64,000 nt of DNA from a virus (IMGVR_UViG_3300014204_000002:1-64000), one strand, 5' to 3'; numbered from the stretch's first letter, positions 16,606-38,344 are shown. Made by a program: numbers and translations. Notes: a model not told the origin generated them from the sequence alone.

Positions 16606-16738
16606 CAACAATAAATTAGAAATACGCAATCTTTATATCGGAAAAGAGACAACATATAGTGTTCATTCTTTTCTAATATGAAGGATGGTACCCTTCATAT
16701 TTATTGTTAAACTACATTTGGTTCTGAACTATTTAAAA
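16606..16738 (-). promoter_or_regulatory. structured 5' leader with embedded antisense promoter, copy 1
   Basis: Homologous to 38191-38310 with compensatory changes in the outer stem. Confidence 0.65.
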
Positions 16739-17200
16739 TTAGGCGTAGGCAGGAATAAGCCATGTATTTACGGGATATATTAGATCGCTTCCTTTTTTAT
16801 TGTTGCAATTAGTACACATCGGCTGATAATTTTTAAGTTCGTCTTTTCCACCGCGTGATCTAGGCAGTATGTGATCCTTCGTGAAGAGCACTTCATTTCC
16901 TTGATCATCGAGTCCATAGAGATTAAAGTGATATTGACCGTAATGTCCCTGTCTCTCCATTATGAAATATTGAGCCTCTAATCCACAATCAACGCAGGTA
17001 GTGCCATATACAGCAAAGCATTGATAGCGATCGGAGGCCATATTAATCCATTCTCCGTCAAAGTCAACTTTATATGCTTTACCATTGCGTTTGGTATCAA
17101 AAATAGTTTGTGAGAGGACTTCTTCGATGGAATAGTGTTTTTCTTTGCGATCAAAACGGGGAACAGAGATACGTTTATTTCTGATTCGAACCATCTGCAA
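16739..17200 (-). CDS. HNH endonuclease
   Basis: CVDCG...TKDHILPRSRGG...NYQPMCTNCNNKKG. Confidence 0.9.
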   Translation of the reverse strand: MQMVRIRNKRISVPRFDRKEKHYSIEEVLSQTIFDTKRNGKAYKVDFDGEWINMASDRYQCFAVYGTTCVDCGLEAQYFIMERQGHYGQYHFNLYGLDDQGNEVLFTKDHILPRSRGGKDELKNYQPMCTNCNNKKGSDLIYPVNTWLIPAYA

Positions 17201-17218
17201 AAAAGATTGGTTGTTGTC

Positions 17219-18109
17219 TTATATAAAAGTTTCTAAATTAATGTCCTTGAGCCGGGTTTCGTAATAACTGTATAGATTACGTGGGCCTTCGCAAAGATGA
17301 TGTTTGCATTCAACTTGCACATATTGGGCAATTAGGGGCATGGCTTTTCGTATGTTTTTGAATTCGTCGCCTAAATCAACACGGGCTTTCTCGATCGCGC
17401 CATAAATTTCAGAGTCTGACAACGGCGGTAATTGAATGGCGCCGTCTCTGATATCACGAGGAACCTTTGTTAATCTTGGTGTGTCAACTTTTGACTTGAA
17501 ATAAATTGTACCGCGACCTGCTCCGGCATTTTCGCCCATGTTAAACGGAGTCTCGCCCATTGCTTTACCGACGACGCCTTCTTCACCGCGATCAATGCAT
17601 TCTTGTAGCATCAGGTCTTTGAACTCGTAAAGTTCCTCAATGGTAGTCATTTTGCAGGTTCCCATTAACTCTGTAACCGGTAGCCCGGCATGATCGCACT
17701 CCTGATACAACTTCGTATAATTTACAAATCGCTGTGATTTTGCGCTCCATAAGTCAAATGCAATAAAATGCGTATTTTCGTGAACTTTAATTCGGGTAGG
17801 TGATTTTCCTTTGCCGCAGAGTTCACCGAAGAGCACGTAATCAGTATTCCACTCACTTGCCGAGTTAAGCAGATCTAAAATGGCGTCCCATTCAGGACAC
17901 TGCTTCATCTGCGTATAGACCTCCATGTTTGCGCGAGCCATGTTTCGTGATCTGATTTCTGGTTCGCCGTCAATTAATGCAATTCCAATATTTGAGCCAT
18001 CCTCTTTCAACGTCCAGAATATCTCGTGCCCGAGCAAAATTTGTGGCCCCGGCTCCAACCTTTCCAGCGCATCTAAATGAGGGTATTTAACCTGTTCTAA
18101 TATATCCAT
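17219..18109 (-). CDS. ATP-dependent RNA ligase (Rnl2-like nucleotidyltransferase)
   Basis: Motif I KEDGSN, RSRN, III LFGE, IIIa AFDL, IV EGVV, V FKSK; no OB domain. Confidence 0.8.
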   Translation of the reverse strand: MDILEQVKYPHLDALERLEPGPQILLGHEIFWTLKEDGSNIGIALIDGEPEIRSRNMARANMEVYTQMKQCPEWDAILDLLNSASEWNTDYVLFGELCGKGKSPTRIKVHENTHFIAFDLWSAKSQRFVNYTKLYQECDHAGLPVTELMGTCKMTTIEELYEFKDLMLQECIDRGEEGVVGKAMGETPFNMGENAGAGRGTIYFKSKVDTPRLTKVPRDIRDGAIQLPPLSDSEIYGAIEKARVDLGDEFKNIRKAMPLIAQYVQVECKHHLCEGPRNLYSYYETRLKDINLETFI

Positions 18110-18239
18110 AAGTTATCTTATGTTAGTTAATTTATAAGTTTAAAAAGGTTTATATTGTCGTAAGTATAATTCTTAATTCCAACAAAATCCGATTGTAGGC
18201 GAATGGCACTGAATCTGATCCTTCATGCCACATTTATTA

Positions 18240-19519
18240 AATTGCCTGCTACTTTAGTTGTGGGATACAGCAGGCTTACACATAGATATAAATATCTGTA
18301 AGTATAATATGGTAATATGTTACAAACCTACAAGTACAGGTTGTATCCCAATGCGATCCAGCAGGACCGTATTGAGAGGCATATCGGCGCTTGTAGGTTT
18401 GTATACAATCTGTTTCTTCAGAAGAAAATCAAGCATTACTCTGCACATGGTAAGTCCTTGTCTTGTTTTGCTCTGAATAAGATGTTGCCCGCACTGAAAA
18501 TTGAGTATCCATTCTTACAGGATGTTCACTCACAACCATTACAGATGGCATCTCGCAATTTAGATAATGCGTTTACAAAGTTCTTCAGAGAAAAGAAGGG
18601 ATTTCCTAAGTTCAAGTCTAAAAAGAATCCAGTTCAATCGTTTCAGTATCCACAAGGAGTGAAACTTAACTGGGAATCAAGCAAGGTATATCTTCCGAAA
18701 GTAGGTCAAGTTAAGTGCAAACTACACCGATTTTTTGAAGGGAACATCAAAACATGTACAGTATCACGGACTCCTACCGGAAAGTATTTTGTATCAATTC
18801 TTGTAGATAACAAAGAACCAGTTCCAGAATCTCAACCATTTAATTCAGAGACTACAATTGGTATTGATGTAGGATTGACATATTTCGCTACTCTATCTGA
18901 TGGAACAAAAGTTGAAAACCCAAGGATTCTTAAAAAGACCTCTGTAAAACTTAAGAAACTTCAGCAATCAGTATCCAGAAAAGTAAAAGGATCAAACAAC
19001 AGACGCAAAGCAATCCGCAAAGTAGCACAATGTCATGAAGATATAGCAAACCAACGATCAGACTTCTTGCACAAACTTTCTTTTAATCTAATCAGCGAGA
19101 ACCAAGCAATCGCAATTGAAGATCTGAACGTGTCTGGGATGTTAAAAAATCATAAACTTGCTAAACATATTGCAGATGCTTCTTGGTCAGAGTTTAGAAC
19201 TATGATCATATACAAATGTAAGAAGTATGGAAAGACCTTGTTAACTATCGGTAGGTTTGATCCATCTTCAAAAATTTGTAGCAAGTGTGGATATCATAAC
19301 ATTAATCTCGCACTGAAAGACCGAAATTGGATTTGTCCTGATTGCGGAGCAGTTCATGATCGGGACATTAATGCCGCGATCAATATTAAATCATTTGCTT
19401 TAATGAAGCAAGATACAGGGCAGGATCTGTCCGGTGAGCCTATGGAGATTGAGTCAGACACATTAAGTGCATCGATCAATGAAACAGGAAGCCAACAACT
19501 TTAGTCATTGGTAGATCAC
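18240..19519 (+). mobile_element. tnpB-only IS200/IS605-family (IS1341-type) element
   Basis: Related subterminal palindromes GCCTGCTACTTTAGTTGTGG (left) and GCCAACAACTTTAGTCATTGG (right); right end TCAC; no tnpA. Left boundary uncertain by about 2 nt. Confidence 0.8.
18317..19504 (+). CDS. tnpB: RNA-guided endonuclease TnpB
   Basis: YKYRLYP N-terminus, RuvC-I GIDVG, RuvC-II IEDL, zinc finger CSKC/CPDC, RuvC-III DRDINAA; all catalytic residues intact. Confidence 0.96.
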   Translation: MLQTYKYRLYPNAIQQDRIERHIGACRFVYNLFLQKKIKHYSAHGKSLSCFALNKMLPALKIEYPFLQDVHSQPLQMASRNLDNAFTKFFREKKGFPKFKSKKNPVQSFQYPQGVKLNWESSKVYLPKVGQVKCKLHRFFEGNIKTCTVSRTPTGKYFVSILVDNKEPVPESQPFNSETTIGIDVGLTYFATLSDGTKVENPRILKKTSVKLKKLQQSVSRKVKGSNNRRKAIRKVAQCHEDIANQRSDFLHKLSFNLISENQAIAIEDLNVSGMLKNHKLAKHIADASWSEFRTMIIYKCKKYGKTLLTIGRFDPSSKICSKCGYHNINLALKDRNWICPDCGAVHDRDINAAINIKSFALMKQDTGQDLSGEPMEIESDTLSASINETGSQQL

Positions 19520-19576
19520 CAAATTGCTCTAATTAACAATAGTTTTATATAAACATAGTCGCTACTTGTACGTACT

Positions 19577-19759
19577 ATGTCTTATGATGACAAAACTGCC
19601 GGTGACATTGCCGGTGAAAAACTCGAAGCAGAACTTGCCACGGCAAAACCCGGCGCATTTAATCGCTTCAAAGTAAACGTGTCGGATCTCGCGTATAGGT
19701 GCACTTTTGGTAAAGTTGGAACGGCTAAACCGACGCCATCCTGCCCTTATACGAAGTGA
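19577..19759 (+). CDS. hypothetical protein
   Basis: 60 aa; TTTTATATA box upstream. Confidence 0.5.
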   Translation: MSYDDKTAGDIAGEKLEAELATAKPGAFNRFKVNVSDLAYRCTFGKVGTAKPTPSCPYTK

Positions 19760-19768
19760 GGCAATCCC

Positions 19769-20611
19769 ATGTATAAAATTTTATTTTTGATCGCTCTTTT
19801 AATTGTTGCACCAGTTAGCGCAATTGAAGGATCTCAACTTAATGTTACGATTGGGGGTGGTGGCGGTGCGTTTATTACTCACGGCGATCATTATAGCGAG
19901 GCATCGGGCGCGTCACTTGGCTTCATAACTGGCAACGAAAACTACCAGTATCAGGCTGCCGGAACCCATATTGTTACTCTTGGAGGAACAAGCTATGCCG
20001 AAACCGACAAATATGATAATCGAATTAAGAACACTGTAAATGTCAAAAACGAACTCATTTACGATAGTCAGGCAGTTGTAGATAATACATATGCATTAGT
20101 TGATAATAGGGCATATATTCCTGATATGGAATGCACGGCTGGAAACTTGCCAACGGCAGGATCAAATGTCGGTCCTAATGGCACGCTGATCGTAGAAGGT
20201 CAGACTCCCTCGTATCAGTCGGTAGAAGTGCATTATGATGGTGCTATGGCCGGTGGTGGAAAGTATCGAACTAACGGCGTGATTGACGATTCGAACTTAA
20301 CGTCCTCAATGCGTGCAGTCAGTTACGGAGATGCTGGATCAGTGACCGCAAATTACGCAGTAACTGCAGAAGCAGGCTATAATAGTTCAAACAATGATGT
20401 TAACTTCAGAAAGCAGGACTACGGACACACGACTTGGATTGCCCGTGATAACATGACGTATGAAGCAGAGTTCGACCTTGAATACAAGGATTACAGCAAG
20501 GCTCTGCAGGCTTCAGAAGAGACGTCGAACAGCAGTATAGTTGTAGGAAATGAAACAATCGCATTCGGCAACGAGACTGTTACCAATGCTACGGTTACAA
20601 ATACCACCTAA
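19769..20611 (+). CDS. secreted/surface glycoprotein
   Basis: Signal peptide MYKILFLIALLIVAPVSA; many N-x-S/T sequons, clustered at the C-terminus. Confidence 0.7.
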   Translation: MYKILFLIALLIVAPVSAIEGSQLNVTIGGGGGAFITHGDHYSEASGASLGFITGNENYQYQAAGTHIVTLGGTSYAETDKYDNRIKNTVNVKNELIYDSQAVVDNTYALVDNRAYIPDMECTAGNLPTAGSNVGPNGTLIVEGQTPSYQSVEVHYDGAMAGGGKYRTNGVIDDSNLTSSMRAVSYGDAGSVTANYAVTAEAGYNSSNNDVNFRKQDYGHTTWIARDNMTYEAEFDLEYKDYSKALQASEETSNSSIVVGNETIAFGNETVTNATVTNTT

Positions 20612-21170
20612 TTTTTAAGGAGTTAAATTTGATGAGTTAATATGACTCTTCAACAATACCTATCTTTTTATATTCGTAACTATAACTACATCATATGCAT
20701 GATTCACAGCAATCTATGGATAGTCTGGCGCGCTCTATCGAAACACTTGCGGCAGAAGTAAAACACCTTTATGAAGAAATGGAATTATTGAAAATGAGGA
20801 TACCACGATGCCCTTGTGGAAACACTATGGTCTCAATGGAAATTGAAAACTTCAAATGACACCAGATCAAAAGATCGCCCTTATAAAAGCGCTCAATCCA
20901 AGTTAAGTTTAAATACTTATCACTCTTATTTTTTAGTTATGTGGAATTGGGTCCGTAAGTATTTTAAAAAATCTCGTGGGTGGCACATTCTTTATAAATA
21001 TAGAAATGGCCGATTAGTTGACGACGAAGACCGGTGGGAAATTGAAGCATTTCAGGGTGTTGGATTTATGAAACGATATGGTATTCACGAAGTAATTCAT
21101 GAAGATGGCACTATATCTTATCAACATACCTGTAAAACAACTCGACGCGGCAAAATACTTATGAATTTAT

Positions 21171-21455
21171 ATGACTAAAAATATCAGTAATGACCTATTA
21201 TTAGCAATCCAGATATACCGGGATCAACCTAAAGCGTGGTTTGGTAAACTGGCCGAAGAATTATCAGGAATCATGGATAAAGACGAGGTTTCTCATTCTC
21301 TGGACATATTATTCGATTGGGGAATTGTCTTTGGTGAATATGGCCCGACTGCTGATGGCCGCGCTGGAAGACTGCTATTCATCGATGAAAGCGCTGAACA
21401 CATCATCAAAGAACTCGATGAGTTGGAGAAACAATTTCCTCAAATCATAAGTTAA
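21171..21455 (+). CDS. putative winged-helix protein
   Basis: WFGKLAEEL...VSHSLDILFDWGIV...GRAGRLLFI pattern. Confidence 0.55.
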   Translation: MTKNISNDLLLAIQIYRDQPKAWFGKLAEELSGIMDKDEVSHSLDILFDWGIVFGEYGPTADGRAGRLLFIDESAEHIIKELDELEKQFPQIIS

Positions 21456-21477
21456 GTTTAAAACATACATTTAAAAT

Positions 21478-21969
21478 TTATGTAAAATAAGCATTTATTA
21501 TATGCTGAATTGTAGCATCTTCTATATTATACCATTCTCCTGATATTTTATAATCTGATAACAATGCGTGTAACTTTGTTTCTTCTCGTAATGCGGTTTC
21601 TACTCTTTTGTATGCTATATATTTTAACTCTGATGAGTTTGAACATTTATGTGATTTAATTCTTTTATTTAAATTTTTAGTCATTCCTATTTTATACTTT
21701 GTTGATCCGACTTCATTTAGTAAGTAAATATATCCAGATGAATCTCTTTCTTCTATAGGATTATCTCGTAAAAATTGTATCACATCGTTCATAATGTCAG
21801 GTTTGAGGTTATATAATTCATTAAGTAAAAATACTTCTAATTTTGGATGGCTATCTATTGCAAATTTCATCGCTACTACGGGATGTGCATATGTACCACC
21901 ATATCTTCCGCGTTTTGTTTGTATCACAGGTTTAAAATCGACCGACATGCAAATCAGATTTGTTATCAA
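21478..21969 (-). CDS. partial KilA-N fused to T5orf172/GIY-YIG-like domain
   Basis: GRYGGTYAHPVVAMKFA (KilA-N C-terminal half); GYIYLL...YKIGMT...GEWY. The KilA-N N-terminal half is missing. Confidence 0.75.
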   Translation of the reverse strand: MITNLICMSVDFKPVIQTKRGRYGGTYAHPVVAMKFAIDSHPKLEVFLLNELYNLKPDIMNDVIQFLRDNPIEERDSSGYIYLLNEVGSTKYKIGMTKNLNKRIKSHKCSNSSELKYIAYKRVETALREETKLHALLSDYKISGEWYNIEDATIQHIINAYFT

Positions 21970-22096
21970 CCCATAAATAGATTCTGGATTGATTGAGGCA
22001 GGATTAACATTTCAAGATAGATTTGATAAATTAACAGAATTATATGATCGGCGCAGGGTCAGATTGCTAGCATAAACGACTAAAATGCGGCCACTC

Positions 22097-22172
22097 TATA
22101 ACAAAAAGAAAGGAAAACTTTCTCCCTGTTATTTTGGGGGTACGCTTAATTGTGTTGTTACACGTATAAAAA
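22097..22172 (-). repeat. dispersed promoter+hairpin unit, copy D (putative small RNA gene)
   Basis: Minus strand TTTTATA...ACACAATTAA...ATAACAGGGAGAAAG-TTTTC-CTTTCTTTTTGTTAT. Confidence 0.7.
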
Positions 22173-22174
22173 TG

Positions 22175-22387
22175 TTAGTAGTGTCTTGAAGATATGATCA
22201 TCCCATTTTCAATTTTGTAATATGGATTTCTGTCTCCAAGACCTTTATCGAGGGTGATTACATAATCGTTGTTGCCCTCTGCTTCGTTTCGTTCTACTTC
22301 CTCAAGGATAAACTTTGCATCCTCTTCTGATTCACCAGCGACAAGCCAGCGTCTTCCGTCTTCATTAATTTTTCTCATGATATTCAA
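22175..22387 (-). CDS. hypothetical protein
   Basis: 70 aa directly after the membrane protein gene. Confidence 0.45.
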   Translation of the reverse strand: MNIMRKINEDGRRWLVAGESEEDAKFILEEVERNEAEGNNDYVITLDKGLGDRNPYYKIENGMIISSRHY

Positions 22388-22690
22388 TTATTCGACACGG
22401 GTGACCGCTGTGTCTGCGGGAGTCTCATAAATTTCGGCATTGACTGTTTTATCAAAGTGAATCAATACGAGGAATGCAATAAACGCATCAGCCAGTTTGA
22501 TCTTCTGGGCATCGGTAACTGTGCCTGCTGTAATCTGCACGAGAGTAATTCCTGCGACACTTAAGAGATCGAGGAAGTTCTGTACAATCGAAAGTGCGTA
22601 TGATGCATCTTTGTACTTGCTCACAATGAAGGGAGAAACAGCAACGAGTATTGCGATGGCACCTTCAAGGACCGGCAGTATATCAGTCAT
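22388..22690 (-). CDS. small membrane protein (holin-like)
   Basis: Two to three hydrophobic segments in 100 aa. Confidence 0.5.
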   Translation of the reverse strand: MTDILPVLEGAIAILVAVSPFIVSKYKDASYALSIVQNFLDLLSVAGITLVQITAGTVTDAQKIKLADAFIAFLVLIHFDKTVNAEIYETPADTAVTRVE

Positions 22691-22780
22691 ACGACAGCAA
22701 TTCTATTTTTTCCTCTTTAATATAATGTTGTTAACTTTTGAGCAAAAATCTATAAATGTTAGTATATCAAAGTTAACATC

Positions 22781-23806
22781 ATGGATCCATTAGTTGCAGT
22801 ATGCATCTCTACATTTAATAGGTTTGCTGATTTACACACTTGCCTTACGTCTATAATGGAGCAGGATTATGTAAATTTAAAAATTATTATATACGATAAC
22901 TATTCTACTGATGAGACAGTCAAATTACTAAAATTGTATGAGGCAACCTTTCCTGAAATGGTAACCGTATTTTACGGCGAAAGAGATCAGCCAAATGCCA
23001 TGATAACACTCAATGCGACGTTTAAAGAGGCCGCGCGAATAGGAGCAGATTATGCTCTGGTAATGGACGACGATGCGTATATACTTGACGATACCGTGAT
23101 ATCAAAACTGGTTGCGTGCATGGTTGACAATGTTGCAATTGTAGGTTCCAACGTCAAATCTGAAGACGGATCATGGCAGATGCCAATCAGAAAGCAAAAT
23201 GGAGAATTTTTATCATCCGAAGAAATAGATGAACTCGGATTGATAGCATATCAAGAGTTTCATGGTGCCTGTGCGTTATTTGACGTTAAAAAATGTGGAA
23301 TTTTTAACTGGTACGACGAGTCTTTTGTAATCTACATGAATGAGTTAGATTTAGCCACGAAAGCACTTAACGCAGGATACAACGTATTATTTAGATCAGA
23401 TGCAGTTGCTTATCATGTTGGCGTAGGCGACAAAAATGCTTGTAACAAACGCGCCTATTACTTTGTCAGAAATTACAATACCGTGCTAACAAGGAATTTC
23501 AGGACGGTGATCAGCAGATTAAAGGCAGTGACGCTTCATACGTTTATGAGTGGTGGTTATTTTGCTGAACGAATTCTTATTCATAATACCTGTAACAATA
23601 GACTTAAGATATTTAACTTCTCATATTTAATGATGCGAGCCTATATTAACGCAGCATATCGAAGTTTCTTTCCTGATGAACGACACCAATTCAAAAATCA
23701 GGACTTCTTTGAACAATCAATGTACAATGGCTTTAAGCGATGCATAGCAGATCGCATGAAATGGATTAAGGGTCGTGAATTAACTGCAACCAAAGGTGTC
23801 CGATGA
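22781..23806 (+). CDS. GT2 family glycosyltransferase
   Basis: VCISTFNR, YDNYSTD, MDDD, FHGAC and ELDL motifs. Confidence 0.92.
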   Translation: MDPLVAVCISTFNRFADLHTCLTSIMEQDYVNLKIIIYDNYSTDETVKLLKLYEATFPEMVTVFYGERDQPNAMITLNATFKEAARIGADYALVMDDDAYILDDTVISKLVACMVDNVAIVGSNVKSEDGSWQMPIRKQNGEFLSSEEIDELGLIAYQEFHGACALFDVKKCGIFNWYDESFVIYMNELDLATKALNAGYNVLFRSDAVAYHVGVGDKNACNKRAYYFVRNYNTVLTRNFRTVISRLKAVTLHTFMSGGYFAERILIHNTCNNRLKIFNFSYLMMRAYINAAYRSFFPDERHQFKNQDFFEQSMYNGFKRCIADRMKWIKGRELTATKGVR

Positions 23807-30417: not shown

Positions 30418-30492
30418 TTTTATATATTGATCGACACAATTAAATGATGCACATAGTAACGAGAGAAAGTTTCTTTTCTTTCTTTTGTTATG
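30418..30492 (+). repeat. dispersed promoter+hairpin unit, copy B (putative small RNA gene)
   Basis: TTTTATATA...ACACAATTAA-ATGATGC...GTAACGAGAGAAAG-TTTCTTTT-CTTTCTTTTGTTATG. Confidence 0.72.
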
Positions 30493-30597
30493 GCCGAAAA
30501 TTTGCGCTTGTTACATGACTCTTTTTGAAAGTTAAGCGACTTCCATTGACATTCGATTTCTTTATATGCCCGTAAAGTCAACTGATAACGTGATTTT

Positions 30598-32826
30598 ATG
30601 AGTGGCGAATCTATTATCGAACATGTTTTAAGAGAGAGATATTATCAACCCGGAGAAAGTTCTCTAAATGATGTTTTTGATCGGGTCACGACAGCAATAT
30701 ATCCACAAGATCGAACGATGCGAACCAAATTTCATGAGATGATGAGTGATATGCGGTTCTTGCCAAATTCCCCAACATTAATGAACTCTGGGACTGAAAT
30801 AGGTCAGTTATCAGCTTGTTTTTCCCTTGGCATCAATGATGATATGGTTAGCATATTTGATACGCTCAAGAATGCTGCCTTAATTTTCAAATCTGGTGGT
30901 GGAGTTGGGATAAACTTTAGTTATCTTCGTCCTAAAGGCGCTTCAGTTGGTTCGACTCTTGGCACTTCATCGGGTGTCTTGTCATTTATGCAAGTATATA
31001 ATTCAATGGTTGAGACAGTAAAAAGCGGGGCTGTTAGACGAGGAGCAGCAATTGGTATTCTAAATATAGATCATCCTGAAATAGAAGATTTTATCGTTAG
31101 TAAAAACATAGAAGGTCAATTGTCAAACTTTAATATCAGCGTAATGATCACCGATGAGTTCATGAAGGCGGTTGAACTTGGCGATCCGTGGTATCTGAAA
31201 TTCGAAGGAAAGGTTTACAAGGAAGTTGATGCTCGTGAATTGTTTAACAAAATTGCCAAATCAATGTGGACGAGGGCAGAACCAGGAATCCTATATTATG
31301 ACGCAATAAACAAGGATAATGTATTAATAGACATTTACGGCCCAATTGACACCTGTAATCCATGTGGTGAGAAAATGCTCGTTGTTTTGAGAAAGGCGCT
31401 TGATGCATGGCTTAAAAAATATGAAGGTGGTGGATCGTCATGTAATCTTGGTTCATTAAATCTTATAAAATATGTAAAAGATGGACAATTTAACTTTAAA
31501 AAGTTTGAAACTGATGTTAGGCTCGGAGTGAGAATTCTTGATCAAATTATTGATGTTAATAAGTACCCGCTTGAGCAAATAGAATACATTACAAAGGATA
31601 TTCGTGAATTAGGACTTGGAGTGATGGGATATCACGATATGCTTATTGAGATGGGAATTCCTTATGACAGCGAAGATGCCTATCAATTTGAAGAAAAGTT
31701 ATTTGGATCGATGTATAGAGCAGCAATAAATGAATCTGAAAAACTTGGAATAGAGATTGGTGTGTTTCCATCTTGCTCAAAATCTAAATTAAAAGATTCC
31801 CCGAGACGAAATTCGTTTGTGTTATCAATCGCGCCCACCGGCACGCTATCGATGATTGCACAATGTTCTAGTGGAATAGAACCAAATTTCTCATATGTGT
31901 ATAATAGAAGTACTTGGTCATCTGGAGAAAAGAAAACATTTAGAGTTATTCATCCATTGTTTGAACAACATCTAAAGTCGTTATATAATAAAACTCAAAT
32001 TGATCGGATAACGAATTTCATGTATGAGAATGGCAGCATTCAAAATTGCCCGGATGTCATCGATCTCACTAAAAAATTATTTAAGACTGCCAAAGACATC
32101 CATTGGAAAGATCATATTTTTACGCAATCTGTGGCACAAAAATGGATTGATTCGTCTATCTCAAAAACGATTAATCTGTCATCGGATACTACAGTAGATG
32201 ATATGAAGAATGCGCTTACTTTAGCACACAAATGTGGACTGAAGGGATTTACAGTTTATAGAGAAGGATCGCGCAATGATGTTGTTCTTGAAACAAACAA
32301 AGTAGTGACGCAATTAAATCCTGTCGAGAAGTTAATAAAAGGTGCAAATGGGCGCATTCTTCCTAAAACTCCTCGTAGTATGATGAGCATCACTGAAAAA
32401 AGGCGCTCTAATTGTGGAAAATTGTACATAACAGTAGCCGAAGTCGAGGGACAAGCGCATACACTTTTGATTAAAAATAAAGGTGGTGGATGTTCTGCAA
32501 TGCTCCAAACGGTTGCTGAATTATCTGCTGCGATGCTTCGATGGAAAATACCTCGTTGGGAACTTGTTAGAATATTAACTGGTATTACATGTGATGCTTG
32601 TAGAGGTCGTACTGACATAGATGGAAAGTCATGCGCTGATATCATTGGAAAAGTAATAAAGGAGAATTTCCCAGACGAGGATATTCCAAATAAACATGAT
32701 GGAGAATCACCTAAAAAGACAACTGTTTCCCAAACTGCTGTTCCGTGCCCCAAATGCGGAAAGGCACTTGTATTTGCAGAAGGATGTAGATCTTGTTCGG
32801 AATGCGATTACACTCGATGTTCGTGA
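30598..32826 (+). CDS. nrdJ: class II (B12-dependent) ribonucleotide reductase with C-terminal TSCPD domain and Zn ribbon
   Basis: PNSPTLMN, SACF, GGGVG, RRGA, NPCGE, CNLGSLN, IAPTG, SKTIN, YREGSR; CPKC...EGC..CSEC. Confidence 0.95.
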   Translation: MSGESIIEHVLRERYYQPGESSLNDVFDRVTTAIYPQDRTMRTKFHEMMSDMRFLPNSPTLMNSGTEIGQLSACFSLGINDDMVSIFDTLKNAALIFKSGGGVGINFSYLRPKGASVGSTLGTSSGVLSFMQVYNSMVETVKSGAVRRGAAIGILNIDHPEIEDFIVSKNIEGQLSNFNISVMITDEFMKAVELGDPWYLKFEGKVYKEVDARELFNKIAKSMWTRAEPGILYYDAINKDNVLIDIYGPIDTCNPCGEKMLVVLRKALDAWLKKYEGGGSSCNLGSLNLIKYVKDGQFNFKKFETDVRLGVRILDQIIDVNKYPLEQIEYITKDIRELGLGVMGYHDMLIEMGIPYDSEDAYQFEEKLFGSMYRAAINESEKLGIEIGVFPSCSKSKLKDSPRRNSFVLSIAPTGTLSMIAQCSSGIEPNFSYVYNRSTWSSGEKKTFRVIHPLFEQHLKSLYNKTQIDRITNFMYENGSIQNCPDVIDLTKKLFKTAKDIHWKDHIFTQSVAQKWIDSSISKTINLSSDTTVDDMKNALTLAHKCGLKGFTVYREGSRNDVVLETNKVVTQLNPVEKLIKGANGRILPKTPRSMMSITEKRRSNCGKLYITVAEVEGQAHTLLIKNKGGGCSAMLQTVAELSAAMLRWKIPRWELVRILTGITCDACRGRTDIDGKSCADIIGKVIKENFPDEDIPNKHDGESPKKTTVSQTAVPCPKCGKALVFAEGCRSCSECDYTRCS

Positions 32827-32903
32827 GCGTTATATGATAAGCATTGAAACTATTGCTCTTTCTTTTTCTATTGCAGGGGCGATATTTATAGGGAGGTTAA
32901 TTT

Positions 32904-33146
32904 ATGGAAATTGAATTAATCTTAACTAGTGTATCTTTATTTGGAATGGCATGTGTTGCAAGGCATGAAATTAGATTTATAGGATTTATTATTTGTAGTA
33001 TTGGGAACATTGGTTGGATCATACATGGGAATTTTATAAATAATATTTCGTATATTGTTCTTTTTTCAGGATATCTTATATTTAATATAATTGGAGCATT
33101 TGATGCACATAAACAAGTTATGAACATTAGCGAGTGTATTAAATGA
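32904..33146 (+). CDS. small membrane protein (PnuC-like fragment)
   Basis: Three hydrophobic segments; GFII..IGNIGW. Confidence 0.5.
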   Translation: MEIELILTSVSLFGMACVARHEIRFIGFIICSIGNIGWIIHGNFINNISYIVLFSGYLIFNIIGAFDAHKQVMNISECIK

Positions 33147-34151
33147 TTAAGAAGTTTTTATCGGACGAAAGTATAATTATTGATAAATATAACAATGTTT
33201 ATGGTCGCTTATCAATATTATACGAGTTTAAGAAAAACCACAAGACATGGTGTCATTGTAAATGTGTTTGTGGTAACGAAACAGATGTTTTAAAATCTGC
33301 ACTAGGAGTAACTACGGTTTCGTGTGGATGTTATCATAAAGAAGTTCAACAACGAATTAGAACAAATTTAACCGGGATACGATTTGGAAGGCTTCTTGCG
33401 GTTGAGCGAGTTAAAAATGACAATAAAATATATTATAGATGTTTATGTGATTGTGGAAGTGAAAAACTTATATTACATTCTAATTTAATAAATGGAAATA
33501 GCAAGTCGTGTGGATGTACGAGAACTCCAAGAAAGCCAAAACATGTAGATAATATCAAAAAAGGGCATATCTTCGGAAGATATACTTATACAGGAATTTA
33601 TAAACGTAATAATAATAGAACTTATTTTAAATGCCTGTGTGAATGCGGAAATGAAAAATTTGTTAGATCCGATGCATTAATAAATGGAACCGCTAAGAGT
33701 TGCGGATGTTATCGAGATGATTCTGCATCTATAAGATTGTCATTTTCATTGGACGAGAGAGCATTACATTGGAAAGGCGGCAAGGGCGATAAGGGATATT
33801 GTTATAAGTTTAAAAGAGCAAGTTTAAAAGAACGAGTACGAAAATTTTTTGGTGATGAGTGTAATATGTGGTAAGACATCTATTGATAATGGCAGAAAAC
33901 TAGATGTGCATCATGTGTATAGAAATAAAGAAGTAATGTGTAATGATGACGAAAGAAAATATTTTGTCCCGTTATGCAAAACATGTCATGGACTAGTGAG
34001 AAGATGTGAAAATAAAAACAATTTTGAGTATAGAGATATGTTTATTAATCTAATACATGAGAAAGGACGATGTTATTATTCAATAGAAGAATATCTAGAG
34101 AAGTTTAAAGGTATAAAACTAAAGAATATAAATTTATATGGAGGAATTTGA
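33143..34151 (+). pseudogene. HNH homing-endonuclease-like gene with CxCxCG...SCGC repeats, split by a frameshift near 33860
   Basis: Three C-x-C-x-CG..SCGC repeats in 33143-33874; the HNH core (LDVHH...PLCKTCH) is in another frame. Restoring 2 nt gives GDECVICGK. Confidence 0.75.
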
Positions 34152-34381
34152 TGATAGATCATATAGCAAACACATTTGTTAACGATAATGGATTAACTGC
34201 AGAAGGACGCAAAAAACTTCGTGTTATAGAAGCGCTTAAACGAAATTACGACAAATACGGGCACTCATACTGTCCGTGCAAAGTCGACAAAATTGAAGAT
34301 AACATCTGCCCATGCAAAGACTTCCGGGAAACTGGTAAATGTATTTGCGGCCTCTATTTATCAGGACAAGAACTTGAATAA
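34151..34381 (+). CDS. ferredoxin:thioredoxin reductase catalytic (beta) subunit-like protein
   Basis: KYGHSYCPC...NICPC...GKCICGLY matches the CPC/CPC/CxC FTR signature; GGAGG SD upstream. Confidence 0.85.
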   Translation: MIDHIANTFVNDNGLTAEGRKKLRVIEALKRNYDKYGHSYCPCKVDKIEDNICPCKDFRETGKCICGLYLSGQELE

Positions 34382-34410
34382 CTTTTTATATTTTATCGTT
34401 GTATAGTGAT

Positions 34411-34606
34411 CATGAGTACTCAAAGTATATCAGTCTCATTTTACTTACCGGTGCAGATCGCATTGCTTGTATTGTTTTACGGGAATATTTTGCCGACATT
34501 ACCAATCTGGCTTGTATGGGCGCCATCATTGATTATTGTGGGCTTGCTTGTCATCGCCGCTGTTATTTTGTTAGTTGCGCTTATTGCTGCATTTTTCAGC
34601 AACTAA
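34411..34606 (+). CDS. small membrane protein
   Basis: Two transmembrane segments, W..W.P motif. Confidence 0.55.
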
Positions 34607-34655
34607 TTTACTTTTTTGCAAGCGCTTTTATACTTTTGTGCCGTAATATAATGAT

Positions 34656-34871
34656 ATGATAAACGATCTCAAAGCTACTGACTTGCTTCTTATTGCTTCA
34701 AATATTGTTTTTATATGGGTATCGTGCAATGGATTAATTCAACAATGTCCACGATACTTGATGTATATTTTTGTTATATTGATAATGATAGAGATGATTA
34801 TTTTTTGCGCATGGGTTCTTTGCAAAGTCGCGTTAATGATAGTTAGATTTATGATAGAGATGATAGAATGA
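34656..34871 (+). CDS. small membrane protein
   Basis: Hydrophobic 71-aa ORF coupled to the methyltransferase gene. Confidence 0.5.
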   Translation: MINDLKATDLLLIASNIVFIWVSCNGLIQQCPRYLMYIFVILIMIEMIIFCAWVLCKVALMIVRFMIEMIE

Positions 34872-35344
34872 AAGGTCATGATGCGTTAACAAGTAGTGTG
34901 AGTCAAAACTGGGCAACTCCTCCGGATCTCTATTTAACACTACATAACGAGTTTGTTTTTACTTTGGACGCTTGTGCGGATGAATCAAACCATAAATGCG
35001 ATAAGTATTTTACCGAAGCGCAGGACGGTTTAAAACAAGAATGGCAAGGTTACACGGCGTTTATAAATCCGCCATACAACGAAACCAAACTATGGGTAGA
35101 AAAGGCAATTGAGCAGCATCATAAATACGGAATTACGATCGTGATGCTTCTTGCAAGTAGAACTGGAAATAAAACATGGCACGAGTTAATTGTCCCACAT
35201 GCAAAACAGATACGGTTTTTAAAGGGCAGGATTAAGTTTGTTGGGGCTACTTCAGGCGCAACTTTTGACAGCGCAATCGTGGTATTTTCGACTAAATCGA
35301 CTGATAAAGCATTTGAAAAATTCGTCTTTATAGACTATAGGTGA
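34868..35344 (+). CDS. phage-type DNA N6-adenine methyltransferase (Dam family)
   Basis: WATPP, FTLDACA, DGLKQEW, NPPY and GRIKF. Confidence 0.92.
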   Translation: MKGHDALTSSVSQNWATPPDLYLTLHNEFVFTLDACADESNHKCDKYFTEAQDGLKQEWQGYTAFINPPYNETKLWVEKAIEQHHKYGITIVMLLASRTGNKTWHELIVPHAKQIRFLKGRIKFVGATSGATFDSAIVVFSTKSTDKAFEKFVFIDYR

Positions 35345-35348
35345 GTTA

Positions 35349-35834
35349 ATGAGAGAAATTACAATAGAAGTGACAAATTATTGTCCATTTCGATGCAAGT
35401 ATTGTTCAAGTAATGCTATAGACAATATTCCTGATGCGACCTTTGTAGAATTAAAACACATTTACACATGCTTGGAAGGTTGGTATGATCGAATTATTAT
35501 TTCCGGAGGAGAACCGTTATTTCATCCATCTATCGGACGCATAATTTATTATTGCAAGCAACACACAAACGATGTAGTAGTTTATACAAACATGATTACA
35601 CACGTTGCTTATAATGCAAATGTCATTGATGGAATTACAGTTGATGTAAACCTGACAACCTTGGACAATGTGAACGAGATACACGTATTAAAGCGAGTTA
35701 AACAAGGAAGAGAAGCAACTCGGCCAGAAGTTAAGTTTTCATCTAATTGGGACAAACACGATTGTCAAAATTGCGGAGACTTTGTATTGAAGCCTGACGG
35801 AACAACGAGACCGTCTCCATGTAATAAGGAATAA
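35349..35834 (+). CDS. minimal radical SAM protein
   Basis: CPFRCKYC, ISGGEPL, YTN; only 161 aa. Confidence 0.8.
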   Translation: MREITIEVTNYCPFRCKYCSSNAIDNIPDATFVELKHIYTCLEGWYDRIIISGGEPLFHPSIGRIIYYCKQHTNDVVVYTNMITHVAYNANVIDGITVDVNLTTLDNVNEIHVLKRVKQGREATRPEVKFSSNWDKHDCQNCGDFVLKPDGTTRPSPCNKE

Positions 35835-35836
35835 TC

Positions 35837-36307
35837 ATGGGTAAGTATTGGTTGCATTTTAAGTATACTTCTATTCACAAATTTTATGTGATGAAGTATT
35901 GTTTTGAAGAAGGGTATTACTTGCGCGGGATCTTGCACGACTTGAGTAAGTTTAGATTGTGCGAGTTTGTGCCATATGCGTGCTACTTTTTCGAGCCACA
36001 TGTGTCGGGAGAACGCAAGGCAGAAAAGAAACATGCATTTGCTGTTGCGTGGCTTAATCATCAGAATCGCAACAAGCACCACTGGCATTTCTGGACGTCT
36101 ATTGATTACGAAGGAAACTTAAAGTATCTTGACATGCCATATGAATACATTGTAGAAATGATCTGTGACTGGCGTGCAGCAGGCAAAGCAAAAGGTACTT
36201 CTGATGGATCACTGGATCAAACTCGTGATTATTACATTACAAACAAACACCGAATGCTTTTATCGTCAAACACCAGACATATAGTAGAGGACATATTAAA
36301 AGTATGA
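35837..36307 (+). CDS. HD-like (DUF5662-type) protein
   Basis: HK..V, LHDLSKF, WLNHQNRNKHHW and EMICDW. Confidence 0.8.
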   Translation: MGKYWLHFKYTSIHKFYVMKYCFEEGYYLRGILHDLSKFRLCEFVPYACYFFEPHVSGERKAEKKHAFAVAWLNHQNRNKHHWHFWTSIDYEGNLKYLDMPYEYIVEMICDWRAAGKAKGTSDGSLDQTRDYYITNKHRMLLSSNTRHIVEDILKV

Positions 36308-36525
36308 AGCGCATTGCTACGATACTTGAATTTGATAGTTGTCATGACTGCCTATATGGGTCAGGTGGTGAATCTTTAGGCAGCCCAATGTACTGCACGT
36401 TCTTTGATCCACCAAAGCAAATTCTAAATTCAAATGGACACGCAGTGACCCCTTTACAAGATGGACGATTTATACCGGTGTTTTGCCCATTACCAGAAGA
36501 CGAAGTTTTTAACGGTGTATTATGA
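36304..36525 (+). CDS. small Cys-rich protein
   Basis: SCHDC...YC...IPVFCPL. Confidence 0.6.
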   Translation: MKRIATILEFDSCHDCLYGSGGESLGSPMYCTFFDPPKQILNSNGHAVTPLQDGRFIPVFCPLPEDEVFNGVL

Positions 36526-37385
36526 AAACGTATTGCTATCAATTTAAAGACGAATTAATTTATGTCATTCATAAAAGTGATGAGATCTGGATTCCAATTA
36601 AATCAATAACTACTGCATGTAAACTATCTCACACAAATACATTACATAGGTTAAAACAATATAAAGAAGATTGCCCGCACCATTTTATGTTAGTGACCGC
36701 AGTGTCAATTGATGAAAATTATCATAAATATAAAAACTCATCAATTCAACTAATTAGTTTACCGGGATTGCTACAGTATGTTAGCGTTATAGGTAAAAAC
36801 ATTAACAATTTAAATTTATTATTGGAATTCTGTAACTGGGTAGATTTAACATTACAAACAAAGTTAATGGATGTATATAGAAGTCGTAACGCCGTTGCTC
36901 TATTAGATAGAGTAAAAACTACAACCGGGAGAGTATTGCAAGTATGTGATATTATTGATTCTGCTGATTTTAATGATGTATTTGTTCATTCATGGAGAAT
37001 AGATTATAGAAAGGAAAAAGACAGGTATTCAATTATAACACTAATTAATAAAAAGAAAACGTATTTAAGTAGGTTTGTTACAAATTGTCCAGATAATATG
37101 TACGTAGATCATATTAATCATGATTTATTTGATAATAGACAGTCTAATTTAAGAATATGCACAAACTCTCAAAATTGCATGAATAGAAAACCGTATGTTA
37201 AATATAAGGGGGTTCAATATAATAAAAAGAAAGACTACTTTTATGCATGTGTAATCAAAAACGGAAAACGTATAACAAAACACTGTTTTTCTACAGAAGA
37301 AGATGCAGCACGAGCATATAATGAAATGGCAAAAGAAATTCACGGTGAGTTTGCGTATTTAAATTTTATAGAGGAAAGTAAATGA
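36522..37385 (+). CDS. HNH endonuclease with AP2 domain and antirepressor-like N-terminus
   Basis: VDHINHDLFDNRQSNLR...N; YKGV...EEDAARAYN..AKEIHGEFAYLN. Confidence 0.88.
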   Translation: MKTYCYQFKDELIYVIHKSDEIWIPIKSITTACKLSHTNTLHRLKQYKEDCPHHFMLVTAVSIDENYHKYKNSSIQLISLPGLLQYVSVIGKNINNLNLLLEFCNWVDLTLQTKLMDVYRSRNAVALLDRVKTTTGRVLQVCDIIDSADFNDVFVHSWRIDYRKEKDRYSIITLINKKKTYLSRFVTNCPDNMYVDHINHDLFDNRQSNLRICTNSQNCMNRKPYVKYKGVQYNKKKDYFYACVIKNGKRITKHCFSTEEDAARAYNEMAKEIHGEFAYLNFIEESK

Positions 37386-38095
37386 GAACGCTCGTTGTGG
37401 GTGATATTCACGGAAATCGTAACGCATTATTACAATGTTTTCAGAGAAGCGAGTTTAATTACAGTAATGATGTTTTAATTTCACTTGGGGATGTTGTTGA
37501 TGGGGGATTACAATCATGTCAAGTTATTGCAGAGTTACTTAAAATAAAAAACTTTATTCTCATTTCTGGGAATCACGACTGCAGTAAGGAAGGATGTGGC
37601 AACGTTGAGTTTGGTTGGTTTTTACTATGGGCTTCAGAAGGCGTGTCTATACCTTTGTGGGAAAATCAAGGTGGTAGGGCAACAATGCTTTCGTATGATT
37701 ATGATCGCCGTAATGTACCTCAATCTCACATCGATTTATTGAAATCGGCAGTTCCATATTACATTGATGATCGTAATAATTTATACGTGCATGGTGGATT
37801 TGACGAGCGTTATCCAATTGAAGAACAAGATCCTGAAACCTTGATGTGGGATCGTGATTTGGTCTATAAATATGGTCGTGGGTATGCTAAAGGCCCAATT
37901 AAAGAATATAAGCGTGTATTTTTGGGCCACACGTCTACACAGGGAATTATGCATGACTGGAATGCCACTGACCCAATTATAACTGACAATGTGATAGCGT
38001 TGGATACCGGTGGTGGATGGAATGGCAAATTGACAATTATGAACGTTGACACCTTGGAATACTGGCAATCCGACATTCAGACACCCAGTCAATAA
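37382..38095 (+). CDS. calcineurin-like metallophosphoesterase (Ser/Thr phosphatase type)
   Basis: GDIHG, GDVVDGG, GNHD, VHGG, GHT and DTG. Confidence 0.92.
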   Translation: MRTLVVGDIHGNRNALLQCFQRSEFNYSNDVLISLGDVVDGGLQSCQVIAELLKIKNFILISGNHDCSKEGCGNVEFGWFLLWASEGVSIPLWENQGGRATMLSYDYDRRNVPQSHIDLLKSAVPYYIDDRNNLYVHGGFDERYPIEEQDPETLMWDRDLVYKYGRGYAKGPIKEYKRVFLGHTSTQGIMHDWNATDPIITDNVIALDTGGGWNGKLTIMNVDTLEYWQSDIQTPSQ

Positions 38096-38190
38096 TCCCG
38101 ACATTAATCACGACAATTTGTCGCGATAACCACTACTTTTTTAAGATATTTTGGTGTCCGGATCTGTACGATATTAAACTTATAGATAAA

Positions 38191-38310
38191 TTTATCTTCC
38201 CAAAAGTTCAATAATATGTGTTAACAAAAGAGATGTGAGGCATCTCTTGAAGAGAATAAACAATACATATTGTCCTTTTCAAGATATATAACTTTCGCTC
38301 TCTTTTGTTG
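38191..38310 (+). promoter_or_regulatory. structured 5' leader with embedded antisense promoter, copy 2
   Basis: Outer stem TAACAAAAGAG/CTCTTTTGTTG; conserved inner hairpin; antisense CGAAAGTTATATATC. Confidence 0.65.
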
Positions 38311-38344
38311 GTAGGATCATATATGGAAAATGCAGTAGTTAAAA

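What the first reader, a model, noticed from the sequence alone, without database searches (positions are those of the whole stretch)
16606..38322. Covarying structured leader with built-in antisense promoter upstream of two antirepressor-like genes
Seen in sequence: the genes at 15713-16594(-) and 38345-39049(+) have homologous ~100-nt leaders (16606-16709 minus; 38222-38310 plus), although most genes here are leaderless. The outer stem shows compensatory changes: TAACAATAAAT/ATTTATTGTTG versus TAACAAAAGAG/CTCTTTTGTTG, ending at or just before the SD-like GAGGT/AGGA. A competing hairpin overlaps the 5' strand (AATATGAAGG..CCTTCATATT; AAGAGATG..CATCTCTT). A conserved inner hairpin follows (GAAAAGAATGAACACTATATGTTGTCTCTTTTC versus GAAGAGAATAAACAATACATATTGTCCTTTTC). 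Each leader also holds an opposite-strand BRE/TATA (GCAATCTTTATATC; CGAAAGTTATATATC) that would make a ~45-50-nt antisense RNA ending in that competing hairpin plus a T-rich tail. Established: bacterial phage antirepressors are controlled by antisense RNAs (P22 sar, P1 c4). Inference: an archaeal-virus antisense switch or RNA switch controlling antirepressor-like genes.
Basis: partly seen in the sequence, partly recalled or inferred. Interest (0 to 1): 0.8.

Follow-up and report, generated by a model that had tools for sequence, protein, structure and literature searches.

The report
Structured leader RNA on antirepressor genes
Two antirepressor-like genes of a 143-kb archaeal-type tailed virus carry a ~100-nt leader that folds into a conserved rod with a competing hairpin; five more copies in related viruses keep the pairing while the sequence changes, so it is a real, undescribed regulatory RNA motif whose antisense-RNA control remains untested.

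Summary
Both leaders sit at the stated coordinates, and every quoted arm and motif is present.

I found five further homologous leaders in related metagenomic viruses. Four lie upstream of P22_AR_N orthologues and one upstream of a Bro-N-like orthologue.

- All seven fold by minimum free energy (MFE) into the same rod: a 5'-terminal clamp helix P1 ending at the Shine-Dalgarno (SD) site, a middle helix P2 and an inner hairpin P3. Core z-scores run from -3.6 to -6.4.
- The sense strand folds better than the antisense strand in 7 of 7.
- P1 has a different sequence in every lineage, with 54 Watson-Crick, 8 G-U and 0 mismatched pairs.
- The competing hairpin H1 is conserved in structure only: 60 Watson-Crick pairs, no wobble, no mismatch.
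- Forcing H1 costs only 0.9-8.8 kcal/mol, so the leader looks bistable.
- Close relatives with the same promoter lack the leader, so it is an optional module.
- Rfam has no match.

The antisense promoter is plausible but unproven. Its score is strong in three closely related copies, moderate in A and L115, and weak in B and L014. No RNA run holding this DNA was listed.

Another first-stage note (e1-5686795) describes leader B of this same genome; it is not independent support.

Verdict: a new structured-leader motif. The mechanism is inferred.

The parts
16730..16737 (-). Sense promoter TATA box of leader A (TTTAAATA). It lies 27-28 nt upstream of the first base of P1, so the RNA should start at the foot of P1.
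   Evidence: Score 10.0 with a weight matrix built from this genome's own leaderless promoters (top 0.02% of genome positions).
16595..16710 (-). Leader A RNA. P1 is 16710-16699 with 16616-16605. H1 is 16701-16692 with 16684-16675. The P3 stem is 16673-16667 with 16647-16641. SD GAGGT is 16606-16602.
   Evidence: MFE rod of -29.2 kcal/mol, z -5.3. H1 is a 10-bp perfect hairpin, matched by 3 of 2000 shuffles. The H1-enforced fold is only 2.8 kcal/mol above the MFE.
16632..16639 (+). Candidate antisense TATA (TTTATATC, preceded by GCAATC) inside leader A.
   Evidence: Weight-matrix score 8.2. It is the best antisense hit in the core, but 297 of 2000 shuffles do as well.
15713..16594 (-). Gene A, 293 aa, Bro-N/ORF6N-like N-terminus, antirepressor-like.
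   Evidence: Pfam Bro-N E 1e-3, below the cut-off. PHROG anti-repressor E 9e-5. Three family members touch ANT/KilAC weakly. Fourteen homologues at 43-62% identity.
38191..38198 (+). Sense promoter TATA of leader B (TTTATCTT, inside the palindrome AGATAAATTTATCT).
   Evidence: Weight-matrix score 6.3, with the same spacing to P1 as in the other copies.
38221..38325 (+). Leader B RNA. P1 is 38221-38233 with 38299-38311. H1 is 38228-38235 with 38241-38248. P2 plus P3 is 38245-38284. SD AGGA is 38313-38316. The ancestral ATG is 38323-38325.
   Evidence: MFE rod of -28.5 kcal/mol, z -5.4. A covariance model built only from relatives finds it at E 0.006. H1 is 8 bp perfect, matched by 39 of 2000 shuffles.
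38285..38298 (-). Candidate antisense BRE/TATA of leader B (GCGAAA-GTTATATA).
   Evidence: Present in the sequence. Weight-matrix score only 4.5, and 603 of 2000 shuffles do as well.
38323..38370 (+). 15-codon upstream ORF, the remnant of the ancestral N-terminus of gene B cut off by a +1 frameshift in an A-run.
   Evidence: The homologue consensus is MxSxIVK-MEFM. It is identical in the contig of independent run X2, which covers 37992-38382.
38345..39049 (+). Gene B, 234 aa, P22_AR_N domain antirepressor-like protein.
   Evidence: Pfam P22_AR_N at 40.1 bits against a cut-off of 30.7. PHROG anti-repressor. Six homologues at about 50% identity.

Best explanation
The element is a conserved, bistable 5' leader RNA: an optional module consisting of a promoter, a leader and an SD site. 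It precedes antirepressor-like genes (P22_AR_N and Bro-N-like) in a small clade of large archaeal-type tailed viruses.

Shown here:
- The transcript should begin at the foot of a clamp helix, P1, whose 3' strand ends at the SD.
- Inside the clamp, four segments X, X', Y and X' can pair in two ways. One way gives a rod (X with the distal X', the proximal X' with Y, around hairpin P3). The other gives side-by-side hairpins (H1 = X with the proximal X', then P3).
- H1 is the first helix that can form during transcription.

Inferred, and the mechanism I think most likely:
- A promoter on the opposite strand, in the conserved unpaired stretch between P2 and P1, makes an antisense RNA of about 45-60 nt.
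- That RNA would start in the P3 loop, carry the complement of H1 as its hairpin, and end in a U-run.
- It would pair with the 5' half of the leader, probably starting loop-to-loop at H1, and break the rod.
- That would free the C/U-rich 3' strands, which then cover the SD and lower translation of the antirepressor-like protein.

Odds: that this is a selected sense-strand RNA structure, about 0.85. That the antisense RNA exists and acts this way, about 0.4 (the figure given as confidence).
For: Homology and structure:
- There are seven copies. A and B are in the window. L009, L010, L013 and L014 lie upstream of P22_AR_N orthologues. L115 lies upstream of a Bro-N-like orthologue.
- All seven fold by MFE into the same rod. 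Core z-scores are -3.6 to -6.4.
- The sense strand is more stable than the antisense strand in 7 of 7, by 1.9-15.2 kcal/mol, because of G-U pairs.
- P1 has a different sequence in every lineage: 54 Watson-Crick pairs, 8 G-U, 0 mismatches.
- On a model-fitted alignment of B, L009, L010 and L013, 92.9% of cells pair. Twelve pairs change on both sides, against 4.2 +/- 1.6 in shuffles (0 of 500 reach it) and at most 5 when the partner columns are slid.

Bistability:
- H1 is perfect in every copy apart from one bulged base in L014: 60 Watson-Crick pairs, 0 G-U, 0 mismatches. Shuffle p is 0.001-0.04 in A, B, L010, L013 and L115.
- The first 60 nt fold into H1 in all seven.
- Enforcing H1 costs 0.9-8.8 kcal/mol, and P1 persists in 5 of 7.

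Geometry:
- The sense TATA starts 26-28 nt upstream of P1 in A, B, L009, L010 and L013.
- Leaderless genes of this genome carry their TATA about 30 nt upstream of the ATG.

Antisense RNA:
- The best antisense weight-matrix hit lies at the same structural place in 6 of 7 copies. Scores are 12.3, 12.3, 11.3, 8.2, 6.9 and 4.5.
- On the antisense strand H1 is followed by a U-run in 6 of 7.
- In B that tail is the 10-mer TCTTTTGTTA, which also ends the genome's own dispersed promoter-plus-hairpin units.
- H1 has no wobble pairs, whereas about 11% of rod pairs are G-U. That fits a helix needed on both strands.
- Masking the 5' half raises the predicted SD pairing in 7 of 7: B 0.06 to 0.60, L014 0.11 to 0.94, L010 0.48 to 0.89.

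Precedents, from my own knowledge: P22 sar, P1 c4, and the T-ant antisense RNA of haloarchaeal virus phiH.
Against: - There are no RNA data of any kind, so the start sites of both promoters are only predicted.
- Against shuffles the antisense TATA is significant only in the three closely related copies (p 0.004-0.024). It is not significant in A (0.15), L115 (0.08) or B (0.30), and L014 has no good site there.
- The TATA-like stretch overlaps the 3' strand of P2, so part of its conservation can be structural.
- The SD is mostly unpaired in both cis conformers, so no on/off state is evident without a trans factor.
- The rise in SD pairing on masking is a folding prediction. Freeing any U/C-rich strand would have some such effect.
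- The leader is dispensable. L007, sister to L010 in the protein tree (support 98/99), has the same promoter but no leader. Five Bro-N-like loci also lack it.
- Only seven copies exist, about five independent lineages, and the alignment used for the pair counts was fitted to the structure.
Confidence: 0.4

Rival explanations
1. A purely cis-acting (or protein-read) structured leader with no antisense RNA. The 5'-terminal clamp and rod would protect the mRNA from 5'-end-dependent decay, or set how ribosomes reach the SD at its foot. The balance between rod and H1 would be shifted by temperature, by a virus or host RNA-binding protein, or by the ribosome.
For: All the structural evidence applies equally. 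P1 starts at the predicted transcription start and ends at the SD in every copy. The antisense promoter is weak or absent in B and L014.
Against: There is no candidate ligand or protein. The SD is open in both conformers, so the output of a cis switch is unclear. This reading does not explain why H1 alone avoids wobble pairs, or why the unpaired stretch AAAG-N-UUUC is conserved.
Confidence: 0.33
2. A transcription attenuator. The U-rich 3' strand of P1 would act as an oligo-U terminator, so most transcripts would end as an RNA of about 90 nt. The H1 conformer or a factor would allow read-through into the gene.
For: In B and L014 the 3' arm carries TCTTTTGTT, the same motif that ends the genome's dispersed promoter-plus-hairpin units. 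L115 has five U in a row.
Against: The U-run is not conserved: it is only 2-3 U in L009, L010 and A. The motif is paired inside P1 and does not follow a hairpin. That TCTTTTGTTA is a terminator is itself untested.
Confidence: 0.12
3. A miniature mobile hairpin element (MITE- or IS200/IS605-derived) inserted between a leaderless promoter and its gene, with no regulatory role.
For: It is a rod with inverted ends. Close relatives differ in presence or absence, with the same promoter (L010 versus L007). Short direct repeats (TATATG-like) flank it, 14 nt long in L009. A TnpB gene lies 1.6 kb from leader A.
Against: There are only two copies per genome, 64% identical, both in the same orientation and register in front of antirepressor-like genes. 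It has stayed at the orthologous position in proteins only 45-53% identical, with compensated pairs and no broken ones. G-U pairs favour the transcribed strand in 7 of 7. No other copies turned up in IMG/VR or in one genome per prokaryote species.
Confidence: 0.08
4. A DNA-level operator: the palindromes would be binding sites for a dimeric repressor of the antirepressor promoters.
For: H1 is a perfect DNA palindrome lying 10-35 bp downstream of the predicted start.
Against: The palindrome sequence differs between A and B in the same genome and between lineages, so only the pairing is conserved. P1, P2 and P3 rely on G-U pairs, which are mismatches in DNA.
Confidence: 0.05

Closest known systems
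Phage P22 sar antisense RNA controlling ant (my own knowledge)
   Same: A short RNA from a promoter on the opposite strand inside the leader of an antirepressor gene, ending in a hairpin plus U-run. Gene B carries the P22_AR_N domain.
   Different: sar overlaps the ant ribosome-binding site. Here the predicted antisense RNA covers only the 5' half of a 100-nt structured leader. The host type is archaeal (TATA/BRE promoters). The antisense transcript is unproven.
P1/P7 c4 RNA (c4-icd-ant) and satellite P4 CI RNA (my own knowledge)
   Same: Antirepressor or immunity control by an RNA derived from the leader of the same operon, using repeated complementary boxes within the leader. Here X, X', Y and X' are such repeats.
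   Different: In P1 and P4 the repeats pair with the ribosome-binding site or cause termination, and the RNA is cut out by RNase P. None of this is shown here, and no repeat overlaps the SD.
T-ant antisense RNA of haloarchaeal virus phiH (my own knowledge: Stolt and Zillig 1993)
   Same: An archaeal-virus antisense RNA complementary to the 5' part of an early lytic transcript.
   Different: There is no sequence or structural similarity. That RNA is about 150 nt and leads to cleavage of the duplex. It has no described bistable leader and no link to antirepressor-like genes.
Bacterial attenuators and riboswitch expression platforms
   Same: Mutually exclusive helices (1:2 with 3:4, versus 2:3) conserved by covariation in a 5' leader.
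   Different: No ligand-binding core or leader peptide is conserved. The SD is free in both states. No Rfam family matches, even at E up to 1.
The same genome's dispersed promoter-plus-hairpin units (first-stage notes e1-5686785 and e1-5686793)
   Same: The hairpin ends are of the same type (UAACARAAG ... CUUUUGUUA). Leader B carries the 10-mer TCTTTTGTTR on both strands.
   Different: The units have a conserved 5' box, CAACTAAATGATG, a single short hairpin, and no H1, P3 or SD. They are not tied to antirepressor-like genes.

Membership tests
cis-antisense control of an antirepressor (P22 sar type) | Promoter on the opposite strand inside the leader | tested here: inconclusive
   A weight matrix from the genome's own promoters scores 12.3, 12.3, 11.3, 8.2, 6.9 and 4.5 at the same place in 6 of 7 copies; L014 has none there. 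Shuffle p is 0.004-0.30.
cis-antisense control of an antirepressor (P22 sar type) | Antisense RNA overlaps the ribosome-binding site or start codon | tested here: not met
   The predicted antisense RNA runs from the P3 loop to the 5' arm of P1, at least 40 nt upstream of the SD.
cis-antisense control of an antirepressor (P22 sar type) | Antisense transcript detected | not testable with these tools
   No RNA run holding this DNA was listed, and the runs laid were DNA contigs.
P1 c4 / P4 CI leader-derived RNA | Complementary boxes in the leader that pair with the ribosome-binding site, or a terminator | tested here: not met
   The X, X', Y and X' repeats exist, but none overlaps the SD or AUG, and the SD is mostly unpaired in both conformers.
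P1 c4 / P4 CI leader-derived RNA | RNA released from the leader by processing | not testable with these tools
   No RNA data.
Any described RNA family (Rfam 15) | Match to a curated covariance model | tested here: not met
   No hit at gathering score over the window, and none at E up to 1 on either leader.
Two-state leader (attenuator or riboswitch platform) | Mutually exclusive helices, each kept by compensatory change | tested here: met
   Rod versus H1 in all 7 copies. H1 has 60 of 60 Watson-Crick pairs with a different sequence in each lineage, and the energy gap is 0.9-8.8 kcal/mol.
Two-state leader (attenuator or riboswitch platform) | One state hides the SD or forms a terminator | tested here: inconclusive
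   The SD is open in both cis states. The U-run in the P1 3' strand is strong only in B, L014 and L115.
MITE / IS200-IS605-derived hairpin element | Many similar copies at unrelated sites | tested here: not met
   There are two copies in 143.5 kb, 64% identical, both upstream of antirepressor-like genes. None was found elsewhere.
MITE / IS200-IS605-derived hairpin element | Presence/absence polymorphism and flanking direct repeats | tested here: inconclusive
   L007 lacks it while its sister L010 has it. There is a 14-nt direct repeat in L009, but elsewhere only 4-6 nt (TATATG), which is also the usual start-site context.
Archaeal-type virus | TATA-box promoters about 30 nt upstream of leaderless ATGs; replication proteins nearest to those of archaeal viruses | tested here: met
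   The TATA peak lies 28-33 nt upstream of ATGs, and SD motifs lie 9-14 nt upstream. The best phage-collection matches of the family B DNA polymerase (PolB) are haloarchaeal tailed viruses. The host genus was not determined.

The most novel reading that the evidence does not exclude
The leaders would be the receiving end of an RNA-only immunity circuit in archaeal viruses. Each antirepressor-like gene would be held off by its own cis-antisense RNA. In addition, the virus's dispersed tiny RNAs, whose shared tail UCUUUUGUUA is complementary to the 5' arm of leader B's P1, would flip the bistable leader in trans. That would be an archaeal counterpart of the P1 c4 and P4 CI systems. A still bolder variant: a tiny ORF at the 5'-terminal AUG, followed by the rod, lets ribosomes loaded in the leaderless manner shunt across the rod to the SD-AUG.
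Probability: 0.1. Interest if true: 0.85.

Novelty: new variant of a known kind. Interest (0 to 1): 0.62.

Why it matters
To my knowledge very few cis-regulatory RNA structures are known in archaea, and I found none described for viruses of non-halophilic, non-thermophilic archaea. How such viruses time their early regulators is unknown.

This motif has a clear geometry: its 5' end is the foot of the clamp, and the SD sits at the other foot. It has two competing folds kept by compensatory change, and it has natural 'deletion mutants' (relatives with the same promoter and no leader). That makes it a concrete, testable entry point.

If the antisense RNA is real, RNA control of antirepressor-like genes arose in archaeal viruses as it did in P22 and P1, with a different architecture.

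Tried and rejected
- RNA evidence: no RNA holder was listed for this DNA. The runs laid were DNA contigs only.
- More copies: five DNA patterns scanned against IMG/VR, one of them also against one genome per prokaryote species, gave only the two contigs already known (L014/L015) plus chance hits.
- Protein-guided scans of IMG/VR with single proteins, and with the Bro-N-like alignment, found nothing. The metagenome scan returned only the L014 contig again.
- MAFFT alignment of all seven leaders is structurally wrong and gives no consensus fold. Covariance models built from the close trio find B well, but A, L014 and L115 only at noise level (11-17 bits), mixed with reverse-strand hits. I therefore made no seven-row alignment for the pair-count tool and counted helices by script instead.
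- Conserved leader peptide: rejected. The small ORFs differ in every copy (sequence).
- Concerted evolution of A and B: not supported. They are 64% identical, against 58-62% to copies in other viruses.
- Duplex prediction between the tiny units and the leaders favours B's P1 5' arm (z -2.5 to -5.5) but not A. I kept it only as a lead.
- The profile of the Bro-N-like family has no relative with a solved structure.
- Relatives cannot be drawn for a virus record, and the host was not identified.


Full report
**What the window is.** The window is the first 64 kb of a complete 143.5-kb virus record with direct terminal repeats. It was recovered from landfill and groundwater metagenomes. Its signals are archaeal in type. 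TATA-like motifs peak 28-33 nt upstream of ATGs, and SD-like motifs peak 9-14 nt upstream. A weight matrix learned from its own upstream regions has the consensus TTTATATA, most often starting 30 nt before the ATG, in 36 of 97 ORFs that have an upstream gap. The best matches in the phage collection to its intein-bearing family B DNA polymerase (PolB) are haloarchaeal tailed viruses. The host genus was not determined.

**Check of the observation.** The 26-nt inner core occurs exactly twice in the genome, against none expected. The two downstream proteins show no detectable pairwise similarity. Both nonetheless look like antirepressors. B has a P22_AR_N domain above the Pfam cut-off. A has sub-threshold Bro-N and ORF6N matches, a PHROG 'anti-repressor' hit, and weak ANT/KilAC hits in its family. 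The leaders are therefore much better conserved than the genes they precede: the cores are 64% identical, against 47% for shuffled sequence.

In the outer stem, all three internal differences between A and B are double compensatory changes, and no pair is broken.

One correction concerns leader B. It ends at ATG 38323, six bases after AGGA. That ATG opens MENAVVK, which matches the N-terminus MxSxIVK-MEFM of the homologues. An extra A in the run at 38340-38344 shifts the frame, leaving a 15-codon upstream ORF that overlaps the start of the long ORF at 38345. The same sequence appears in a contig from an independent study, so it is probably real and not an assembly error.

**Related sequences.** Homologues of protein B, at about 50% identity, lie on metagenomic virus contigs. 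Upstream of four distinct ones there is a homologous leader: L009, L010, L013 and L014. L014 stands for two IMG/VR records. Of the homologues of protein A, one, L115 at 43% identity, has the leader. Five other loci are leaderless.

L007 encodes the sister of the L010 protein (support 98/99). It has the same promoter, CATAACATTTTTAAA, followed directly by a leaderless ATG. So the leader is an optional module that can be lost or gained cleanly. Further searches of IMG/VR and of one genome per prokaryote species found no more copies. Rfam has no match.

**Anatomy.** All seven copies fold by minimum free energy (MFE), independently, into one architecture:
- A basal clamp helix, P1. Its 5' strand begins 26-28 nt after the first base of the sense TATA in five copies, which puts it at the predicted 5' end of the RNA. 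Its 3' strand ends at, or one base into, the SD.
- A middle section made of X pairing with the distal X', and the proximal X' pairing with Y.
- An inner hairpin, P3, with a conserved YAUAUR loop.

Core z-scores against dinucleotide shuffles are -3.6 to -6.4. P1 differs in sequence in every lineage yet has 54 Watson-Crick pairs, 8 G-U pairs and no mismatch. The lineage sequences are UUAACAA.., UGUUAC, UGGUAUCA, UAUGUUGAU and GCGAUC.

The sense strand folds better than its complement in all seven, by 1.9-15.2 kcal/mol, because of G-U pairs. That argues for an RNA structure on the transcribed strand, and against a DNA palindrome or an antisense-only structure.

On a model-fitted alignment of B with the three close relatives, 92.9% of cells pair. 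Twelve of 36 pairs change on both sides, against 4.2 +/- 1.6 in shuffles (0 of 500 reach it) and at most 5 when the partner columns are slid. That alignment leans towards the structure by construction.

**The competing hairpin.** X can also pair with the proximal X' to give H1. H1 is present in all seven with different sequences, and apart from one bulged base in L014 it is perfect: 60 Watson-Crick pairs, no wobble, no mismatch. Helices of 8-10 bp are matched in only 0.1-4% of shuffles in A, B, L010, L013 and L115. H1 is what the first 60 nt fold into on their own. Enforcing it costs only 0.9-8.8 kcal/mol, usually with P1 and P3 kept. The leader therefore looks bistable: a rod, or hairpins side by side inside the clamp. 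The SD is largely unpaired in both states, so the cis structure alone does not explain an on/off output.

**The antisense idea.** The stretch between P2 and the distal X' is unpaired in the rod and conserved (AUAAAG-N-UUUC). On the opposite strand it reads GAAA-N2-TTTAT, which is BRE/TATA-like.

With the genome's own promoter matrix, this is the best antisense hit at the same structural place in 6 of 7 copies. It scores 12.3, 12.3 and 11.3 in the close trio, 8.2 in A, 6.9 in L115 and 4.5 in B. L014 has no good site there. Against shuffles only the trio is significant.

A start 24-28 nt downstream of that site would fall in the conserved P3 loop. The RNA would then carry the complement of H1 as a hairpin, followed by a U-run in 6 of 7. 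In B that tail is TCTTTTGTTA. This 10-mer occurs eight times in the genome (final base A or G). Five of these end the genome's dispersed promoter-plus-hairpin units, and two are the two arms of leader B.

H1 has no wobble pairs, whereas about 11% of rod pairs are G-U. That is what one expects of a helix needed on both strands.

If the 5' half of the leader is masked, as an antisense duplex would do, the predicted SD pairing rises in all seven. The rise is strong in B, L010, L014 and L115.

No RNA run holding this DNA was listed.

**Verdict.** The structure is real, conserved, specific to antirepressor-like genes, and undescribed. I put about 0.85 on a selected sense-strand RNA structure. I put about 0.4 on the antisense-RNA mechanism. 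The rivals are a cis- or protein-read leader (0.33), an attenuator (0.12), a mobile-element remnant (0.08) and a DNA operator (0.05).

The element works like the P22 sar and P1 c4 systems in purpose, but it fails their defining features where I could test them. The predicted antisense RNA does not overlap the ribosome-binding site, and none of the repeated boxes pairs with it.

Another first-stage note (e1-5686795) describes leader B of this same genome. It is the same element read again, not independent evidence.

Noticed in passing
window 38323-38370 and 38345-39049: Gene B carries a +1 frameshift (an extra A in the run at 38340-38344) relative to its homologues' N-terminus. This leaves a 15-codon upstream ORF behind the SD that overlaps the start of the long ORF. 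The sequence is identical in a contig of an independent study. Translational coupling, programmed frameshifting or a decaying gene are all possible.
   Followed up: partly
window 30437-30490 (+), 46843-46791 (-); genome 77172, 93727, 98957, 122108, 123397: A family of at least seven dispersed units: a TATA box, the conserved box CAACTAAATGATG at the predicted start, a purine/pyrimidine hairpin whose sequence varies, and the invariant tail TCTTTTGTTA. The same 10-mer forms both arms of leader B's outer stem. The tails are predicted to pair with B's 5' arm (z -2.5 to -5.5).
   Followed up: partly
L007:2740-3003 versus L010:440-626: Sister proteins (support 98/99) share the promoter CATAACATTTTTAAA, but one gene is leaderless and the other has the 100-nt leader. 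This is a natural, clean presence/absence pair. Short TATATG-like direct repeats flank the leader, 14 nt long in L009.
   Followed up: partly
window 18317-19504 (+): A TnpB/IS605 OrfB-type gene (OrfB_IS605, Cas12f1-like TNB and HTH domains) lies 1.6 kb from leader A, next to RNA ligase and HNH genes.
   Followed up: no
window 12053-15001 (+): The family B DNA polymerase carries an intein. Its nearest matches in the phage collection are haloarchaeal tailed viruses at about 24-28% identity.
   Followed up: partly
window 2112-2186 (+): ARAGORN reports a tRNA-like gene with an undetermined two-base anticodon ('aa'), next to tRNA-Leu(taa) at 922-1003.
   Followed up: no
S coordinates 0-9 of the leaders (e.g. 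window 38216-38218; L010:513-515): Six of seven leaders have an ATG at or next to the predicted transcription start, opening a 1- to 25-codon ORF that differs in every copy (ATG-TAG in A, ATG-TGT-TAA in B, MLLKR in L010 and L013). It may be a relic of a leaderless promoter, or a start-stop mini-ORF at the foot of the rod.
   Followed up: partly
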